In this document: positions 1,543 to 6,836 of the stretch, piece after piece | Layout of the letters: each line of letters begins with the position of its first letter | How positions within the stretch are numbered: position 1 is the stretch's first letter | From: Candidatus Kapaibacterium sp. | GTDB lineage: Bacteria; Bacteroidota; Ignavibacteria; Kapaibacteriales; UBA4661 | DNA: 64,000 bases | NCBI GenBank assembly: GCA_004292595.1 | Contig: RDXM01000106.1 | Location: forward strand, 4,946 to 68,945 | Direction of reading: 5' to 3' | Made by a program: the position numbers and the translations under genes | Notes under the pieces: model-generated | The model's database searches: none | Seen by the model: only the letters and a program-made list of their open reading frames with translations | What the model was told of the DNA's origin: nothing

Positions 1543-3246
1543 TTAAAAATTCACTGCCAAACCCAGTCTGCCAAACGCACCGATATTCACAATGCCGCCA
1601 TCTATCGTCAAACCTGGAATTGCGCCTGGGTCGATTGGGGGTTCTGTGCCGTTCCGTCCCGTATAATGCCCGCCCGCGCTCAGTTCTAAAAACACCCCAA
1701 CTTGACGAGTGAAATTATACTGAAAACCCCCCAGCAAACCAACATACAAGCGCACGGGAGTAAAATTACTCAGCATCGTACCAATCGGCAGCCCCACGTA
1801 GGCATCAAGAGTTTGATTGCGCACAAAATGGTACGCTGGGCGCACGGTGAGAAAATGATAATCTGTGTAGCGAATCCTCGTTGTGGTGGTGGTTGTGGTC
1901 TGAATGCCTGTTCCTGTGGTTATTCGCGTTGTGTCGTTGATGTTTGGTCCTGGAAAATAGCCATACATCAAGCCTAAAGAAAACTGCGGCGATACATAAA
2001 AATCGCCTGAAATACTAAGCATTGGGAAAGAAACATCGCCCGAACCGCCTGTAAATCCTGTGGGAAAAGTACTCGGTGCGATAATTGTTGCCGGGATACC
2101 CATAATTGGACGATTCAGCGCGAAGCCCGCACCAATGCCCACGCGCAGCGTAAAGATGGGCAAGGCAGTGTCTTTGACAACAGCACGTGCGGTATCGCGT
2201 TTTATGGCTGGTGGCGGCGGAACAGGTTTTTTATCCGTTTGATAGGGTGCAAATTCGCCTTGCGGCTTGTCGCCCGTGCTTCGTTGTGGCATCGTGCGGG
2301 CAATTCCGCCCGGAGGATTGCTGCTGGTGGTCGGTGCTGTGGTCGTGCCTACGGGAGAGCGGCTCGCACTCGCTCCAGCACTGGGTTGTACGTTGTCCAA
2401 ATTTTTAATGCGCTCTTCCAATGCCGCCAAGCGTGCCGTCAGCTGTGCATTCAAAGCGCGTTCTTGCTCAAGGGGCGATAGTGATGGTGTACGCGACGGC
2501 GCATTCGAGCTAGCCGGCGGCGCAGAACGTGGCGGTAAATCACGCGGACGTAAGTTCTGCGGCGGTACTGACGAAGTTGGTGGCGCAGTGCGGCGTGTGT
2601 TTGGATTGAGACTGGTGCTGGTATTGGCGTTCAGTGCTGCATCGCCGCGTGAGGCGGGCATGGGCTGAAGGCGCGAGGCATCATCGCTCATCATGTTATC
2701 CAAGAGCATTTGCGTTGAATTGCGACTGGACTGCGGCGAGCGCGATTTGATGATGTCGTTAAAAATGTCCGAAGCCCGTTGCAATGCCGCGAGTGCTGCT
2801 TGGCGGTCGCCCATATCGCGGTAAACTAATCCCAAGTATTCGTAGCCTGTTGCTTGCCAATAGCGGTTGCCAGAGCGCGTTGCTCGCTCAATTCCCTCAT
2901 TGATATTTTTCTGCGCAAGGTCGTAATTACGTGCCTCGCGGTAGGTATTACCCATTTTGAGCAAACGCATTGTTTCCTCATTGTTTCCGCGCTCGCTTGC
3001 TCGCTCGTTTGCGCGGTCGCTTGTTTGCGCTGGTGGTCGTGCCGTCGCAGAGCGCGTCGGAACTGGTCTCGCGGGACGGCTCTGCGCCCATAGTTCCGAA
3101 GAAGCACAACAGCACACAAGCGCAAATGCGAGTGCGAGTGCAAAAATATTGAGACAACTCGGCACAAAGCGCAGGCGTGACAACGAGGATTCATGCGCAA
3201 AGCGTGGCGCAAAAAAGCGCGGCGAGGAAAAAGATATGAACTTCAT
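1543..3246 (-). CDS. secreted protein with a TPR region, coiled coil, Pro/Ser/Thr-rich linker and a C-terminal outer-membrane beta-barrel
   Basis: The N-terminus carries a signal-like hydrophobic segment. A TPR-like block follows (YREARNYDLAQ...YWQATGYEYLGLVYRDMGDRQAALAAL), then a leucine-zipper coiled coil and a long low-complexity P/S/T linker. The C-terminus has alternating-hydrophobic beta strands ending ...GLAVNF with a terminal aromatic residue. It is a paralog of the ORF at 3534-4835. Confidence 0.55.
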   Translation of the reverse strand: MKFISFSSPRFFAPRFAHESSLSRLRFVPSCLNIFALALAFALVCCCASSELWAQSRPARPVPTRSATARPPAQTSDRANERASERGNNEETMRLLKMGNTYREARNYDLAQKNINEGIERATRSGNRYWQATGYEYLGLVYRDMGDRQAALAALQRASDIFNDIIKSRSPQSSRNSTQMLLDNMMSDDASRLQPMPASRGDAALNANTSTSLNPNTRRTAPPTSSVPPQNLRPRDLPPRSAPPASSNAPSRTPSLSPLEQERALNAQLTARLAALEERIKNLDNVQPSAGASASRSPVGTTTAPTTSSNPPGGIARTMPQRSTGDKPQGEFAPYQTDKKPVPPPPAIKRDTARAVVKDTALPIFTLRVGIGAGFALNRPIMGIPATIIAPSTFPTGFTGGSGDVSFPMLSISGDFYVSPQFSLGLMYGYFPGPNINDTTRITTGTGIQTTTTTTTRIRYTDYHFLTVRPAYHFVRNQTLDAYVGLPIGTMLSNFTPVRLYVGLLGGFQYNFTRQVGVFLELSAGGHYTGRNGTEPPIDPGAIPGLTIDGGIVNIGAFGRLGLAVNF

Positions 3247-3533: not shown

Positions 3534-4835
3534 TTACTTCTTGCCAATCAAGAAACAGAAATACGCGCCTTCGTTGTCGCAATCGTACATCGTTACCAAG
3601 AATGTATGTGTGCCGCCATATTCATTGCTCCAGCCTATTTTCGCTAATGCCTCGCGGGTATTGGGCTTGCGAGAGAGCGTTTCGATGGGCTGTGCGCTGG
3701 TATCGGTTGATTGCGTTTGAGTCTGATTTTGCCCTGACGTTTGCGAGGATGTATTTTGCTGCTGATTTTGCTGCTGATTTTGCTGCCCGTTGTTGGACTG
3801 ATTGACCGTAGAGCTAGAATCAGTGCGCTGTCCAGCACTTGCTTCGTTGGGATTGAAGCGAATATCCTTGCGCTCAAGCACTACGCCTTGCGAATTGATG
3901 ATGCGCACGTCCAAATCACGCGCCTTCTGCGTACAGGCATCGCCCAAAATGAGGTATTGTCCAATCGGCACGTTGATTTCAATTTTCGTGGATTCGCCGC
4001 GCTTCAAGTAGCCAACAATCACCGTCCCGTCCACTCGCGCATTGCCGCCTTGCAAGCGGACTGCGCGGTCATTGATACCAAAATCTAAAGGCGCAAAACC
4101 GTTCATCCAGAGCGTACTTTCGCGGTATTTTGCGGTCGCTTCTAGCTCACGCTTACACTCGCTCATATCCAGCGACGACGAGCTTTTGAGCGACATGACG
4201 CTGCTGGATTCCAGTTGTTTTATGCGTCCTTCCAATTCTGAAATTTTTGATTGCAGCATCCGATTTTCATTTTGCAAGCGCGTGTTTTCGTCCTGCAAGC
4301 GTGTGTCGGTGGCGCTGACGGGCGGCGGTGTTGCCATTGCCATTGAGTTCTGCGCAGACATGGACGGCGGCGGCGCGGATGCACCCTGCTCTACATCAGC
4401 AATCACGGCGCGGAGAGCGTCATCGCTGCCTTGTCCGTTGCGCATCGTTACAATGCGGTCGTAGAGCGAAGCCGCTGTACGCAAGTATTCAAGCGCGAGC
4501 TGACGGTCGCCCATATCGCGGTAGAGCAAGCCCAAATACTCATATCCGACAGCCTCCCAGTACGTGCCGCTTCGTCCGCCCCGCACCATATCTATCCCAC
4601 GCTTGATGTAGTATTGCGCGAGGTCGTAGTTGCGAGCTTCGCGGTAGCTATTGCCCAATTTCAAATACCGAACACCCAGATTTTCTGCATTCACTCCGCC
4701 CGTGCGGCGATAGGTGGTCGGGGCATCGTTTGGCGGTGCATCTTGCCCCCAAAGCGTCCTTGGCTGGAAAGCAAGCACCGAAGCGGCAAGTGCCAATCCC
4801 GTACAAAGCGTTGATACTGTGTGCAACATTTTCAT
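3534..4835 (-). CDS. secreted TPR/coiled-coil protein, paralog of 1543-3246, with a different C-terminal domain and a Q/N-rich tail
   Basis: It begins with a signal peptide (MKMLHTVSTLCTGLALAASVLA). It shares with its neighbour the block LGNSYREARNYDLAQYYIKRGID...YWEAVGYEYLGLLYRDMGDRQLALEYL, followed by the coiled coil ENTRLQNENRMLQSKISELEGRIKQLE. The C-terminal domain is unrelated to the neighbour's. An NQQQNQQQN low-complexity stretch is present. Confidence 0.55.
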   Translation of the reverse strand: MKMLHTVSTLCTGLALAASVLAFQPRTLWGQDAPPNDAPTTYRRTGGVNAENLGVRYLKLGNSYREARNYDLAQYYIKRGIDMVRGGRSGTYWEAVGYEYLGLLYRDMGDRQLALEYLRTAASLYDRIVTMRNGQGSDDALRAVIADVEQGASAPPPSMSAQNSMAMATPPPVSATDTRLQDENTRLQNENRMLQSKISELEGRIKQLESSSVMSLKSSSSLDMSECKRELEATAKYRESTLWMNGFAPLDFGINDRAVRLQGGNARVDGTVIVGYLKRGESTKIEINVPIGQYLILGDACTQKARDLDVRIINSQGVVLERKDIRFNPNEASAGQRTDSSSTVNQSNNGQQNQQQNQQQNTSSQTSGQNQTQTQSTDTSAQPIETLSRKPNTREALAKIGWSNEYGGTHTFLVTMYDCDNEGAYFCFLIGKK

Positions 4836-5017
4836 AGACCTTTTCTCTGGAAACCACCCTGCTTTAGCGGGTGGAGGAAAGAGCAGCGAAATAGGTGCGG
4901 TTTTGCGGAGTCACACGGCTGCCGTGGCGGAGCAAACGCGCAGTTTTTCGCTTTCTTCTGTTAGTGATTGAATTAGTTGGTTTATTTTCAACATTTTTAA
5001 CTTGGTGTTTCGCTATC

Positions 5018-6304
5018 TCACACCGCATACCGATAGCCATCGCAACGCTGGACAATCTTGCAATATTTGTAGCTCACGCCTTGAACAGTGCCGTTTTTAT
5101 CCGTAATATTAAAACTACCTGACGACCGCACCGCCACTTTGCCCTCGTGTGTTCCACGCTTTGCACCGCTTGGAACTACCGCTTTGACCATATCGCCTGT
5201 TTGAAATCCTTTGACACTTTTTGCGCCCTTCGCACTCGTGCGTGGAAAGCCGTATTTGTCCACACGGCACATTTGGCGATTGCCCCAGCCTTGCGCTGTA
5301 ATGGTGAGCGGGCGCATTCCTGCGTCTATTCGTACTGCTTCGCCGCTTGCACCAACACACGCCGCATCTATCCAATGCGCTTTTGCGTACCCTTGGCGGT
5401 TGCGATTGTACTTTGTTCGCCCGCCACTACCAAGCTCAACGGGCAAACCAAATAATTGCAAACGATTATACAATTCCCATCGTGGTGCGTTCACCGCCGC
5501 CGTGTCTTTGAGCGGCATTCGTGCTTGCTTGTGCAGATGTTCGTGTCCAAATTCTTCCGCCGTTTGTGTGCCTTTGCGCTCGTTGCATTTGCGACAAGCA
5601 AGCGTCAGGTTTGACACGCGATTTGAGCCGCCACGTGCTTTCGGAATGATATGCTCTACCTCAAGCGGAACATCCTTTGCCGTGCAGTATGCGCACCTGC
5701 GCTGCCATTTTTCCAGCAAATATTCCCGCACTTCGTAGCCTTGTAACGCGCCTTGCTGGTATTCTACACCTGAAATTTCCGCATCCTGCATCTTCTGTGT
5801 GTCGAAGCGCACGAGTTCTTGACTCATGCTTTTTACGGGCGACAACCGCGTGAGGCGTTGCACCCACGTTGTTATGTTTGCCAAACGGCTTTCGAGCGAT
5901 GGCGGCAGCCAAGCACCACGATTACCGTGGCGTGGGCGTGTTCGGTTCAAAAAACGTGGTTTGCGATAGCGTGTGTGGCGATTGCGCCGTCCGCGTCGCA
6001 CACCGCGCCGTTGCTCCAATGCTTCGTGGACGCGCTGCCCTCGGTGTGTGAGTTCGGCAGCAAACACTACCTCGCCCGTCGTTTCCTCTACCAGAGCAAT
6101 ACCTGTAGTTTTGCTTCCTGGGTCGAGTTTTGCCCGCAACGCTCGTGGCGTTGCATCGGGATAAGAACGCTTCAAAATAATCGTAAACGGAAACCTCCGA
6201 TAGACTGCCGCTTTGCCTTCGCCAAGCAGCATACGCGCTCGCTTGGGGCGACACGGTGCAAGAGGTCGTTTGTCCGTATCTAGCACAAAAACTTTTTGCA
6301 TCAA
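5018..6304 (-). CDS. iscB: IscB, an OMEGA-class RNA-guided endonuclease of the RuvC/HNH type that is ancestral to Cas9
   Basis: The 428-aa protein shows the full IscB domain order. The N-terminal PLMP-like domain reads VFVLDTDKRPLAPCRPKRARMLL. RuvC-I is KLDPGSKTTGIALV. An Arg-rich bridge helix follows (RRGVRRGRRNRHTRYRKPRF). RuvC-II is EISGVEYQQGALQGYEVREYL. The HNH domain is CAYC...EVEHIIPKARGGSNRVSNLTLACRKCNERKG. RuvC-III is AKAHWIDAACVG. A C-terminal TAM-interacting-like beta domain completes the protein. Confidence 0.85.
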   Translation of the reverse strand: MMQKVFVLDTDKRPLAPCRPKRARMLLGEGKAAVYRRFPFTIILKRSYPDATPRALRAKLDPGSKTTGIALVEETTGEVVFAAELTHRGQRVHEALEQRRGVRRGRRNRHTRYRKPRFLNRTRPRHGNRGAWLPPSLESRLANITTWVQRLTRLSPVKSMSQELVRFDTQKMQDAEISGVEYQQGALQGYEVREYLLEKWQRRCAYCTAKDVPLEVEHIIPKARGGSNRVSNLTLACRKCNERKGTQTAEEFGHEHLHKQARMPLKDTAAVNAPRWELYNRLQLFGLPVELGSGGRTKYNRNRQGYAKAHWIDAACVGASGEAVRIDAGMRPLTITAQGWGNRQMCRVDKYGFPRTSAKGAKSVKGFQTGDMVKAVVPSGAKRGTHEGKVAVRSSGSFNITDKNGTVQGVSYKYCKIVQRCDGYRYAV

Positions 6305-6560
6305 AAATACTCCTTAAAGAGTGTCGCGGCTTGCACCGCGTAATGGTCGCCTCGACAATGTTTTAACGGCTTTTTGCACTCAACACACTGGCTTACACCG
6401 TCCGCCTGTTTAATGTTGAGCGACAGAGCGTAAGACTGGCAAGCATCCTACGGTGTCCTGACCGAAAAAACGTAGATTACTCTCTACAAGAGCAATCTGA
6501 GTCTGGTCAATGTCGGCTTGTATTTCCTACAAGCCACCCGTCTTTAGCCGGTGGTGATTG
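6305..6560 (-). ncRNA. candidate omega-RNA (IscB guide RNA scaffold) in the iscB 5' leader
   Basis: About 250 nt of non-coding sequence lie between the iscB start codon and the left-end hairpin. The region is rich in local stems, for example gtcGCGGCttgcaCCGCgtaatggtcgcctcGAC and the terminal CCACCC/GGTGG hairpin. The position matches where IscB omega-RNAs are known to be encoded. The guide segment would lie at or beyond about 6555. Confidence 0.4.
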
Positions 6561-6836
6561 ACAATGTGCATCTCCGAAAACTGTGAAAAAGTATGTGTAA
6601 TTGATTGCGTGTAGAAATGATACATGATGCACTTTAGAGGATTCAAACATTGTGCCAATCGCTGCAAAGGCTCGTAAAATCTGGATAAAAAAAGCACAAA
6701 AAAAACGCACAAAAAAAAACGCACAAAAAAGGACGTACAAAAAAAGCTGGACAAAGAGCCTCGAAAAACCTCTTTGATAACCACAACTTTTTTGTACGTC
6801 CTGAATGTAATAATTTTCTGTTTCGTTTTCGCTTTT

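What the first reader, a model, noticed from the sequence alone, without database searches (positions are those of the whole stretch)
6305..6690. Structured 5' leader of iscB as a candidate omega-RNA, with the guide expected near the left-end junction
In IscB systems the omega-RNA is encoded upstream of the ORF and overlaps the transposon left end. The guide is its 5' segment, derived from sequence at or just outside the left-end boundary. Here about 250 nt of non-coding, stem-rich sequence lie between the iscB ATG and the left-end hairpin. A short GC stem (GCGGCttgcaCCGC) near the ATG is nested within a second stem (GTCG ... CGAC), and the left-end hairpin itself forms a further stem. If an omega-RNA is present, the segment around 6555-6600 would be the natural guide. 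Its sequence would predict what the element targets.
Basis: inference. Interest (0 to 1): 0.7.

Follow-up and report, generated by a model that had tools for sequence, protein, structure and literature searches.

The report
IscB guide RNA (omega-RNA) gene
The structured stretch upstream of iscB is an ordinary member of the known HEARO/omega-RNA family, the guide RNA of a small IscB transposon, and a related genome without the transposon shows exactly where the transposon ends and which DNA the guide recognises.

Summary
Window 6562..6340 (minus strand) matches Rfam HEARO (RF02033), the IscB omega-RNA family, over the full model: 145 bits against a cut-off of 83, E 2e-30.

- **Protein.** It lies 38 nt upstream of an intact 427-aa IscB (RRXRR + HNH). 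All RuvC and HNH catalytic residues are present.
- **Structure.** A model built from this sequence finds 53 counterparts in other loci, each just upstream of an iscB homologue. 89% of pair cells are paired, 65 of 73 pairs show compensatory changes, and the nexus pseudoknot covaries.
- **Guide.** Conservation stops exactly at 6562|6563. The guide is therefore 6578..6563 (UUCGGAGAUGCACAUU).
- **Empty site.** A related Kapaibacterium-like genome carries ...TTCGGAGATGCACATT|ATGAA... uninterrupted. This fixes the element at 4836..6562 and the TAM as ATGAA (TTCAT on the + strand). The target is the un-inserted allele.

- By the TnpA convention the omega-RNA end is the transposon right end, not the left.
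- 6579-6690 is host 5'UTR and promoter, not scaffold.
- The proposed GTCG...CGAC stem is not supported.

This is known biology and a new, divergent member (63% or less protein identity to anything found).

One side observation: elements of this clade sit precisely in front of host start codons.

The parts
6563..6578 (-). Guide segment of the omega-RNA (5'-UUCGGAGAUGCACAUU-3'). It is host DNA immediately outside the transposon end. The 16-nt length is taken from OgeuIscB; the natural 5' end is unknown.
   Evidence: Conservation among relatives stops exactly at 6562|6563. The same 16 nt followed directly by ATGAA occur in the empty site of L073. The guide has a single match in the window. The 16-17 nt guide length comes from Kato 2022.
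6340..6562 (-). Omega-RNA scaffold as covered by Rfam HEARO (RF02033), positions 1-211 of 211.
   Evidence: 145.2 bits against a gathering score of 83, E 2.3e-30; 89.2% of pair cells are paired, against 35-40% for slid controls.
6325..6340 (-). Terminal hairpin beyond the Rfam model (CGCGGU-GCAA-GCCGCG).
   Evidence: Helix 14: 6 of 6 pairs show compensatory changes and 91% of cells are paired. Meers et al. note that RF02033 lacks downstream structural elements.
6534..6554 (.). Subterminal imperfect palindrome at the omega-RNA end of the element (right end in the TnpA convention). The same bases form the first internal hairpin of the omega-RNA.
   Evidence: Its twin at the other end lies at 4854-4874. 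As DNA alone it folds weakly.
6438..6440 (-). Loop half (GCC) of the nexus pseudoknot.
   Evidence: it pairs with GGC at 6351..6349. The third pair covaries across 50 sequences (GC 16, UA 16, CG 8, AU 3), and the alignment model did not impose this pairing.
6349..6351 (-). 3' half (GGC, inside the conserved CGAGGCG) of the nexus pseudoknot.
   Evidence: It corresponds to C93-C96:G155-G158 of the OgeuIscB omega-RNA (Kato 2022).
6310..6323 (-). Possible second terminal hairpin (ACUCU-UUAA-GGAGU) that contains the iscB Shine-Dalgarno AAGGAG (6315..6310). Predicted only; not visibly conserved in relatives.
   Evidence: MFE fold. No equivalent is obvious in alignment A1.
5018..6301 (-). iscB, 427 aa counted from ATG 6301. 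An in-frame TTG at 6304 is the mechanical ORF start.
   Evidence: Pfam RRXRR 9e-67 plus HNH. PDB IscB hits up to 3.7e-40. D60, E162, H309 and D312 align with OgeuIscB D61, E193, H340 and D343; HNH residues H217 and N231 are present. The gene is called with this start in the Logan assembly.
4836..4874 (.). Far end of the element (left end in the TnpA convention). An 18-nt terminal segment (4836-4853) is followed by the subterminal hairpin CCACCCTGCTTTAGCGGGTGG (4854-4874).
   Evidence: DNA fold -9.6 kcal/mol, z -2.7. The boundary is fixed by the empty site.
4831..4835 (.). TAM, the TnpA target motif: TTCAT on the + strand and ATGAA on the iscB strand. Its ATG is the start codon of the downstream host gene.
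   Evidence: The empty site reads ...CACATT|ATGAAAATG. ATGA(A) is conserved at the far end of 17 of the 18 loci examined; L013 has GTGAA. GstIscB TAM is TTCAT (Meers). N|ATGA is a known ISC target (Kapitonov 2016).
4836..6562 (-). Whole non-autonomous IscB (ISC / IS200-IS605 superfamily) element, 1727 bp.
   Evidence: The joined flanks align colinearly, without a gap, to L073 and L074.
6617..6658 (-). Promoter-like hexamers in the host flank. They are candidates for the outside promoter that must drive guide and scaffold transcription. This is weak consensus evidence only.
   Evidence: The region is conserved in L073 upstream of the orthologous gene. Meers: omega-RNA transcription must start outside the IS.
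3534..4835 (-). Host TPR-repeat gene (433 aa). The element now separates its 5'UTR and RBS from its start codon.
   Evidence: 100% identical to NCBI 'MAG: Candidatus Kapaibacterium sp.' TPR protein. Orthologues without the element are in L073 and L074.

Best explanation
Window 6578..6325 (minus strand) encodes the omega-RNA (HEARO RNA) of a 1727-bp non-autonomous IscB transposon at 4836..6562, in a Kapaibacterium-like genome (Bacteroidota).

**Shown here**
- The scaffold (6562..6325) is the transposon's own terminal sequence.
- The roughly 16 nt just outside the end (6578..6563, UUCGGAGAUGCACAUU) are host DNA. In this family that position serves as the guide.
- The element sits between the 5'UTR (with a GGAG Shine-Dalgarno-like motif) and the ATG of a host TPR gene.
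- The uninterrupted site, guide match + ATGAA, exists in a related genome.

**Inferred from characterised relatives (OgeuIscB, GstIscB)**
- Transcription starts at the host gene's promoter outside the element and runs through guide, scaffold and iscB.
- IscB binds the scaffold.
- The ribonucleoprotein recognises DNA reading 5'-TTCGGAGATGCACATT-ATGAA-3'. That sequence is the donor joint, or empty allele, which exists only when the element is absent.
- IscB cuts that site with its HNH and RuvC domains. Recombinational repair from an occupied copy then re-installs the element (homing or retention after TnpA-mediated excision).
- The occupied site is safe because the guide match is followed there by GTCAA (TTGAC on the + strand). 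That differs from the TAM TTCAT at two positions.
- Mobility itself would need a Y1 TnpA supplied in trans.
For: **RNA family and structure**
- Rfam HEARO full-length hit, 145 bits, E 2e-30.
- Fold z-score -3.6.
- 14 of the 20 genome loci scanned carry HEARO at gathering score directly upstream of iscB, on the same strand.
- A window-derived covariance model finds 54 matches (the window itself and 53 other loci), all in that position.
- 89% of pair cells are paired, 65 of 73 pairs show compensatory change, and the covariation score is 0.57 against 0.07 for slid controls.
- The pseudoknot pair covaries GC/UA/CG/AU although the model did not contain it.

**Guide boundary and insertion site**
- There is a sharp conservation boundary at scaffold position 1, with unrelated 5' flanks within single genomes.
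- The empty site in L073 matches the guide 16 of 16, followed by ATGAA. L074 has the same junction with 1 mismatch.
- The far end has a twin hairpin, about 18 nt, then ATGAA, as in relatives.

**Protein**
- IscB is intact with all catalytic residues.

**Literature**
- HEARO is the IscB omega-RNA. The scaffold comes from the right end, the guide lies outside the boundary, the TAM is TTCAT and the donor joint is targeted (Meers).
- 16-17-nt guide, pseudoknot and terminal hairpins (Kato).
- 5'-GTCA termini and N|ATGA targets (Kapitonov).
- 65% of HEARO nuclease 5'UTRs hit RF02033 (Goltsman).
Against: - No expression, processing or cleavage data exist for this locus.
- The natural 5' end, and so the exact guide length, is unknown.
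- Promoter evidence is only weak hexamer matches.
- No TnpA-like ORF was seen in the 64-kb window, though only by a crude motif scan.
- Only this one copy was found in any collection, so current mobility is unproven.
- The TAM is inferred from the insertion site and from GstIscB, not measured for this protein.
- 10 of 67 HEARO consensus pairs are non-canonical in this sequence. This is within the normal range for hits of this score.
Confidence: 0.88

Rival explanations
1. A relic: the RNA gene is homologous to omega-RNAs, but the element is a stranded, no longer active copy. There is no transposase and no other copy, and it is simply carried along and co-transcribed with the host gene.
For: Only one copy was found in any collection. 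No TnpA-like ORF is in the window. Orthologous sites in two relatives are empty, so the insertion is lineage-specific.
Against: The ORF is uninterrupted with every catalytic residue. The omega-RNA scores higher against HEARO than most relatives do. Both ends and the TAM are intact. About 98% of iscB genes lack a nearby tnpA anyway (Meers).
Confidence: 0.15
2. An ordinary 5' UTR or cis-regulatory leader that controls iscB translation, with no trans-acting guide function.
For: A predicted small hairpin (6323..6310) would sequester the iscB Shine-Dalgarno sequence. The RNA is contiguous with the mRNA.
Against: Full-length membership in a family experimentally shown to be the IscB guide RNA. A large covarying multi-helix fold with a pseudoknot is far more than a leader needs. 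The variable 5' segment abuts the scaffold and matches the empty site next to a TAM.
Confidence: 0.03
3. Conservation reflects only DNA-level function: the region is the transposon end recognised by TnpA, and the apparent RNA structure is a by-product.
For: The first 30 nt of the scaffold coincide with the subterminal hairpin used as a TnpA binding site, and a twin hairpin is at the other end.
Against: TnpA needs only about 30-50 nt at each end. Here about 240 nt are conserved, with compensatory changes in 13 further helices and a long-range pseudoknot. None of these is mirrored at the other end. The right-end DNA hairpin alone is not even significantly stable.
Confidence: 0.02

Closest known systems
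HEARO RNA (Rfam RF02033), the IscB omega-RNA; structurally characterised in the OgeuIscB-omega-RNA complex (PDB 7XHT/7UTN)
   Same: Full-length covariance-model match. Same position and strand relative to iscB. A 5' guide abuts the scaffold. It has a nexus pseudoknot, a conserved CGAGG linker and a terminal hairpin.
   Different: The protein is only distantly related to OgeuIscB (phmmer E 4e-22). The 5' domain has an outer stem enclosing two small hairpins, whereas OgeuIscB has one long 14-bp guide-adaptor hairpin. One variable stem is extended to 11 bp (6498..6474). The inferred TAM is ATGAA, whereas OgeuIscB uses NWRRNA/NNRR.
GstIscB element of Geobacillus stearothermophilus (Meers et al. 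2023)
   Same: Non-autonomous IS200/IS605-type element. The omega-RNA scaffold comes from the right end and the guide from outside the boundary. TAM is TTCAT. The right-end motif differs from the TAM at two positions (TTGAC against TTCAT here). The upstream host gene is co-oriented. The target is the donor joint.
   Different: Different phylum (Bacteroidota/Kapaibacteriaceae). No sequence comparison with GstIscB or its element was made here. A single copy is seen and no cognate TnpA was identified. No functional data.
ISC transposons with N|ATGA target sites (ISC1-1_MA, ISC2-1_HM, ISC2-1_MS; Kapitonov, Makarova and Koonin 2016)
   Same: 5'-GTCA terminus, insertion immediately 5' of ATGA with no target duplication, subterminal imperfect hairpins, iscB as the only gene, and boundaries verified by empty sites.
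   Different: New host lineage and a divergent sequence. That paper predates recognition of the guide RNA. In the text searched it does not discuss start codons.
TnpB omega-RNA / reRNA of IS200/IS605 and IS607 elements
   Same: A transposon-end-derived scaffold is fused to a flank-derived guide that targets the donor joint next to the TAM.
   Different: The TnpB RNA overlaps the 3' end of tnpB, has a 3' guide and is transcribed from inside the element. Here the RNA lies 5' of the gene, has a 5' guide and needs an outside promoter.
Cas9 crRNA:tracrRNA
   Same: A 5' guide with a 3' structured scaffold directs an HNH+RuvC nuclease to a target that has a 3' adjacent motif.
   Different: It is a single RNA. 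The 1727-bp element is fully accounted for by the omega-RNA, iscB and its ends, so there is no CRISPR array or cas genes in it. The guide is fixed by the insertion site and is not acquired.

Membership tests
HEARO RNA / IscB omega-RNA (RF02033) | Covariance-model score at or above the curated gathering score, over the full model | tested here: met
   145.2 bits against 83, model positions 1-211 of 211, E 2.3e-30.
HEARO RNA / IscB omega-RNA (RF02033) | Encoded immediately upstream of, and on the same strand as, an IscB/IsrB gene | tested here: met
   The Rfam match ends 38 nt before the iscB ATG. The arrangement is the same in 14 genome loci and in all 53 hits in other loci with the window-derived model.
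HEARO RNA / IscB omega-RNA (RF02033) | Conserved multi-helix fold with a nexus pseudoknot, supported by covariation | tested here: met
   65 of 73 pairs show compensatory changes and 89% of cells are paired, against about 37% for slid controls (the alignment was fitted to the model). The pseudoknot pair was not in the model and covaries GC16/UA16/CG8/AU3.
HEARO RNA / IscB omega-RNA (RF02033) | Variable 5' guide derived from DNA outside the transposon end, abutting a constant scaffold | tested here: met
   Information drops from 1.0-1.3 to 0.0-0.2 bit at position 1. Copies within one genome diverge there. The empty site shows the 16 nt are host DNA.
HEARO RNA / IscB omega-RNA (RF02033) | Transcribed, bound by IscB, and directs DNA cleavage | not testable with these tools
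   No RNA-seq or biochemistry is available for this organism.
IscB nuclease | N-terminal PLMP/RRXRR region, with a RuvC domain split by an HNH insertion | tested here: met
   PF14239 RRXRR 9e-67 (residues 5-185) and HNH_5/HNH/HNH_4 at residues 204-254. PLAP is at residues 13-16. The best PDB hits are all IscB.
IscB nuclease | Catalytic residues of RuvC (OgeuIscB D61, E193, H340, D343) and of HNH | tested here: met
   D60, E162, H309 and D312 align with them. HNH residues H217 and N231 are present.
IscB nuclease | C-terminal TAM-interacting domain with a defined TAM | not tested
   The C-terminal ~80 residues were not aligned to solved structures. The TAM is inferred only from the insertion site (ATGAA) and from GstIscB.
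ISC / IS200-IS605 superfamily transposon | Subterminal imperfect hairpins at both ends, with no terminal inverted repeats | tested here: met
   Hairpins of the same sequence type lie in the same orientation at 4854-4874 and 6534-6554; these are the only two matches in 64 kb. The geometry is TAM, 18 nt, hairpin at one end and hairpin, 8 nt, end at the other.
ISC / IS200-IS605 superfamily transposon | Site-specific insertion next to a 4-5-nt motif, without target-site duplication | tested here: met
   The empty site ...CACATT|ATGAAAATG... in L073 and L074 equals the window flanks joined with no duplicated or lost base. N|ATGA is a documented ISC target.
ISC / IS200-IS605 superfamily transposon | Y1 (HUH) TnpA transposase encoded in the element (autonomous form) | tested here: not met
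   The 1727-bp element holds only iscB. No HUH-type ORF was found in the window by a crude motif scan. The element is therefore a non-autonomous member, as are about 98% of iscB elements (Meers).
Type II CRISPR-Cas9 or CRISPR-associated IscB | An adjacent CRISPR array and cas1/cas2 | tested here: not met
   The element boundaries leave no room for them. The neighbours are purE and a TPR gene. No CRISPR family appeared in the Rfam scan.

The most novel reading that the evidence does not exclude
IscB elements of this ATGAA-TAM clade are found preferentially exactly between the 5'UTR/RBS and the ATG of a co-oriented host gene. The TAM's ATG is the host start codon.

- The host promoter then necessarily transcribes guide, scaffold and iscB.
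- The guide is the host gene's own translation-initiation region.
- The host gene becomes a downstream passenger of the iscB transcript.

If this is a selected strategy, and not just survivorship of harmless insertions, it would explain how IscB elements solve their need for an outside promoter. It would also predict polar effects on the expression of the genes they precede.
Probability: 0.35. Interest if true: 0.45.

Novelty: new member of a known kind. Interest (0 to 1): 0.22.

Why it matters
The biology is established, so the value is mainly as a clean, fully delimited natural example.
- It is a divergent IscB/omega-RNA pair from Kapaibacteriaceae, with 63% or less protein identity to anything in the collections searched.
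- Its guide, TAM, both ends and natural target are all pinned down by an empty site in a relative.
- It could be tried directly as a compact RNA-guided nuclease with a predicted ATGAA TAM.

The locus also shows concretely that the guide of such an element is the ribosome-binding region of the host gene it interrupts.

Tried and rejected
1. The exact-protein look-up with the mechanical TTG start found nothing. The ATG-start version found one Logan contig of the same locus, so no second copy is known.
2. The genome and metagenome scans with the protein gave no relative above about 65% identity. Boundaries could not be set from close copies, so they were set from the orthologous empty site instead.
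3. A plain MAFFT alignment of the leaders (A1) misaligned the variable stems. It was replaced by a covariance-model alignment.
4. The first hairpin pattern was mistyped and gave 0 hits. It was corrected.
5. It conflicts with covarying helix 5 and with the terminal hairpin.
6. A crude HUH/Y1 motif scan of all six frames of the window found no TnpA candidate.
7. The right-end DNA hairpin alone is not significantly stable, so no weight is placed on DNA folding.
8. The original HEARO paper (Weinberg et al. 2009, Nature) is not in the library. My recollection that it noted insertion next to ATGA/GTGA could not be verified.
9. Searches for prior mention of a start-codon association of IscB elements found none. 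That covers only the open-access library.

Full report
**What is at the coordinates**

- The minus strand carries a 427-aa ORF (ATG 6301 to stop 5018).
- It matches Pfam RRXRR (9e-67) and three HNH families.
- Its best matches among solved structures are all IscB proteins: TbaIscB 3.7e-40, HfmIscB 1.4e-26 and OgeuIscB 4e-22.
- In the OgeuIscB alignment, D60, E162, H309 and D312 fall on the RuvC catalytic residues D61, E193, H340 and D343 named by Kato et al. 2022 (PMC9640706).
- The HNH motif EVEH217...N231 is intact.

**The leader is a HEARO RNA / omega-RNA**

- A gathering-threshold Rfam scan of the whole 64-kb window returns exactly one hit. It is HEARO (RF02033) at 6562..6340 on the minus strand: 145.2 bits against a cut-off of 83, E 2.3e-30, covering model positions 1-211 of 211.
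- HEARO is the RNA later shown to be the IscB guide RNA (Meers et al., bioRxiv 10.1101/2023.03.14.532601; Goltsman et al., PMC9755519; review PMC13565253).
- The RNA 6580..6305 folds 3.6 sd better than dinucleotide shuffles.

**Comparison with other iscB leaders**

- Scans with the protein returned 23 genome loci and 46 metagenome loci. The closest have only 62-65% protein identity.
- Of the 20 genome loci scanned, 14 have a HEARO hit above the gathering score directly upstream of the gene, on the same strand.
- I mapped the HEARO consensus structure onto the window sequence, where 57 of 67 pairs are canonical. I added the 3' hairpin, built a covariance model and searched all loci.
- That search gave 54 matches: the window itself and 53 other loci. 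All lie just 5' of an iscB homologue.
- On the resulting alignment, 89.2% of pair cells are standard pairs, against 35-40% when partners are slid by 1-3 columns.
- 65 of 73 pairs show changes on both sides, and the covariation score is 0.574 against about 0.07. This alignment was fitted to the model, which favours the structure.
- An independent check is the nexus pseudoknot, which the model did not contain. Loop GCC (6440..6438) pairs with GGC (6351..6349) inside the conserved CGAGGCG. The variable third pair reads GC 16, UA 16, CG 8, AU 3 and other 3 across 50 distinct sequences.
- This corresponds to the C93-C96:G155-G158 pseudoknot stem of the OgeuIscB omega-RNA.

- The 'GC stem' is real. 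It is a 6-bp hairpin with a GCAA tetraloop (6340..6325), lying beyond the Rfam model. All six pairs covary (helix 14). Meers et al. also noted that RF02033 lacks downstream elements.
- The end hairpin (6534-6554) is real. It is at once the first internal hairpin of the RNA and the subterminal palindrome of the transposon.
- The proposed outer GTCG...CGAC stem is not supported. G6356-C6354 pair instead with 6501-6503 in a covarying helix (column pair 209-607: AU 18, CG 18, GC 7). CG6326-6325 belong to the terminal hairpin.

**Where the guide is**

- Across 47 distinct loci, information content is 0.0-0.2 bit per position in the 30 nt upstream of scaffold position 1. It is 1.0-1.3 bit at positions 1-4, GUCA.
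- Four copies in one Chloroflexota MAG (86-93% identical over 1.59 kb) lose all similarity exactly at that base. Three copies in Nitrospirota/Dissulfurispiraceae MAGs do the same.
- In the window the scaffold therefore starts at 6562 and the guide is the sequence just outside it.
- With the 16-17 nt used by OgeuIscB, the guide is 6578..6563, 5'-UUCGGAGAUGCACAUU-3'.

**The other end, the TAM and the empty site**

- A hairpin of the same type (CCACC..CTAAAG..GGTGG) occurs only twice in the window, at 6534-6554 and 4854-4874, in the same orientation.
- In the window and in 17 related loci, the iscB-distal end reads hairpin, then TTTCC plus about 12-15 nt, then ATGA(A). L013 has GTGAA instead.
- ATGAA is the reverse complement of TTCAT, the experimentally determined TAM of GstIscB. 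N|ATGA is a documented ISC target site, with 5'-GTCA element termini (Kapitonov et al. 2016, PMC4810608).
- The decisive evidence came from the downstream host gene. Its product is 100% identical to an NCBI 'Candidatus Kapaibacterium sp.' TPR protein (lineage Bacteroidota).
- Its 83%-identical orthologue in GCA_013298775.1 (L073) and a 71%-identical one (L074) have no IscB element.
- Their upstream sequence reads ...CACAGTTTTCGGAGATGCACATT|ATGAAAATG... The window's flanks 6563+ and 4835- joined together align to it colinearly, with no base gained or lost.
- This fixes the element at 4836..6562 (1727 bp).
- It shows that the 16-nt guide is host DNA.
- It shows that the guide matches the empty site 16 of 16 (L073) or 15 of 16 (L074), immediately followed by ATGAA.

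**Convention and mechanism**

- The TAM abuts the transposon left end in the TnpA-centred convention.
- The geometry fits IS200/IS605 elements: TAM, 18 nt, hairpin at one end and hairpin, 8 nt, boundary at the other.
- At the occupied site the guide match is followed by GTCAA (TTGAC on the + strand). This differs from TTCAT at two positions, the same relationship Meers et al. describe as protecting the donor.
- The guide has no other match in the window.
- The mechanism is inferred by homology, not shown here. An outside promoter transcribes guide, scaffold and iscB. The RNP cleaves the empty allele or donor joint. Recombination with an occupied copy restores the element.
- The outside promoter would be that of the interrupted TPR gene. 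Promoter-like hexamers lie at 6658-6617, in sequence conserved with L073.
- The upstream gene purE is co-oriented, as is typical. It ends in a strong hairpin plus T-runs, so read-through from purE is probably limited.

**What is not known**

- There is no expression or cleavage evidence.
- No TnpA was found in the window (crude scan).
- Only this one copy exists in any collection.
- A stranded but intact copy therefore cannot be excluded.

**Comparison with the known**

This is a new, divergent member of a well-characterised kind: HEARO/omega-RNA, IscB and a non-autonomous ISC element with an N|ATGA target. Nothing about the RNA itself departs from the family beyond variable stem lengths.

**Side observation**

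- In the window, the TAM's ATG is the start codon of the host TPR gene. A GGAG lies in the guide 9 nt upstream of the original ATG.
- In 16 loci where ORF length could be determined, the ATG of the terminal ATGA(A) opens an ORF of 90 codons or more in 11 (L013, with GTGAA, is among the 5 that do not). Two more ORFs run off the contig. By comparison, 15% of other ATGA sites in the same loci do so.
- Pfam shows these are real genes beginning there. Examples are Lactamase_B_3 from residue 4 at profile position 1, signal peptidase II from residue 10 at profile position 2, and AAA_15 from residue 15 at profile position 18.
- Shine-Dalgarno-like motifs are enriched in the guide position: 11 of 38, against 4 and 1 of 38 in control windows.
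- I found no mention of this in the papers searched. The original HEARO paper could not be read.
- It may simply reflect survival of harmless insertions combined with the need for an outside promoter.

Noticed in passing
window 4831-4835, and the far ends of L001, L003, L004, L006, L022, L025, L028, L029, L063, L064: The ATG of the TAM (ATGAA) is the start codon of a co-oriented host gene in 11 of 16 determinable loci, against 15% of other ATGA sites. Pfam domains start within a few residues of that ATG. IscB elements of this clade therefore sit exactly between RBS and start codon.
   Followed up: partly
window 6563-6580 and the guide positions of 38 related loci: Shine-Dalgarno-like motifs (GGAG/GAGG/AGGA/AAGG) are enriched 4-18 nt outside the scaffold boundary: 11 of 38, against 4 and 1 of 38 in control windows. 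The natural guides are often the host gene's ribosome-binding region.
   Followed up: partly
window 6663-6802: Downstream of purE on the minus strand there is a perfect 15-bp inverted repeat (6730-6744 / 6788-6802, 43-nt loop). It is followed by T-rich units repeating every 11-14 nt (TTTTTTGTGCG-like, x3-7). This is probably the purE terminator with an unusual periodic T-tract. It is partly conserved in L073, although the upstream gene there is different.
   Followed up: no
window 4875-5017: The spacer between the iscB stop and the TAM is 183 nt here, against 62-159 nt in the 17 relatives and 62-70 nt in eight of them. The extra ~110 nt are A-rich and include a short palindrome, CACGGCAGCCGTG. 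Function unknown.
   Followed up: no
window 6310-6323: A predicted hairpin, ACUCU-UUAA-GGAGU, would sequester the iscB Shine-Dalgarno sequence right after the omega-RNA terminal hairpin. It is not visibly conserved in relatives.
   Followed up: no
window 1543-3246 and 3534-4835: Two adjacent paralogous TPR-repeat genes with signal-peptide-like N-termini share motifs such as NYDLAQ and YRDMGDRQ. The tandem pair is conserved in L073 and L074.
   Followed up: no
window 1-64000: HEARO is the only Rfam family reaching its gathering score in the 64-kb window. No tRNA, rRNA or riboswitch family was reported.
   Followed up: no
L074 1591-2217 (minus strand): A stand-alone 208-aa HNH-domain gene lies about 1.3 kb upstream of the empty site in the relative that lacks the IscB element. 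Its relation to IscB was not examined.
   Followed up: no
L002 2222-2296: A tRNA gene lies about 450 nt upstream of one Chloroflexota IscB element, on the opposite strand.
   Followed up: no
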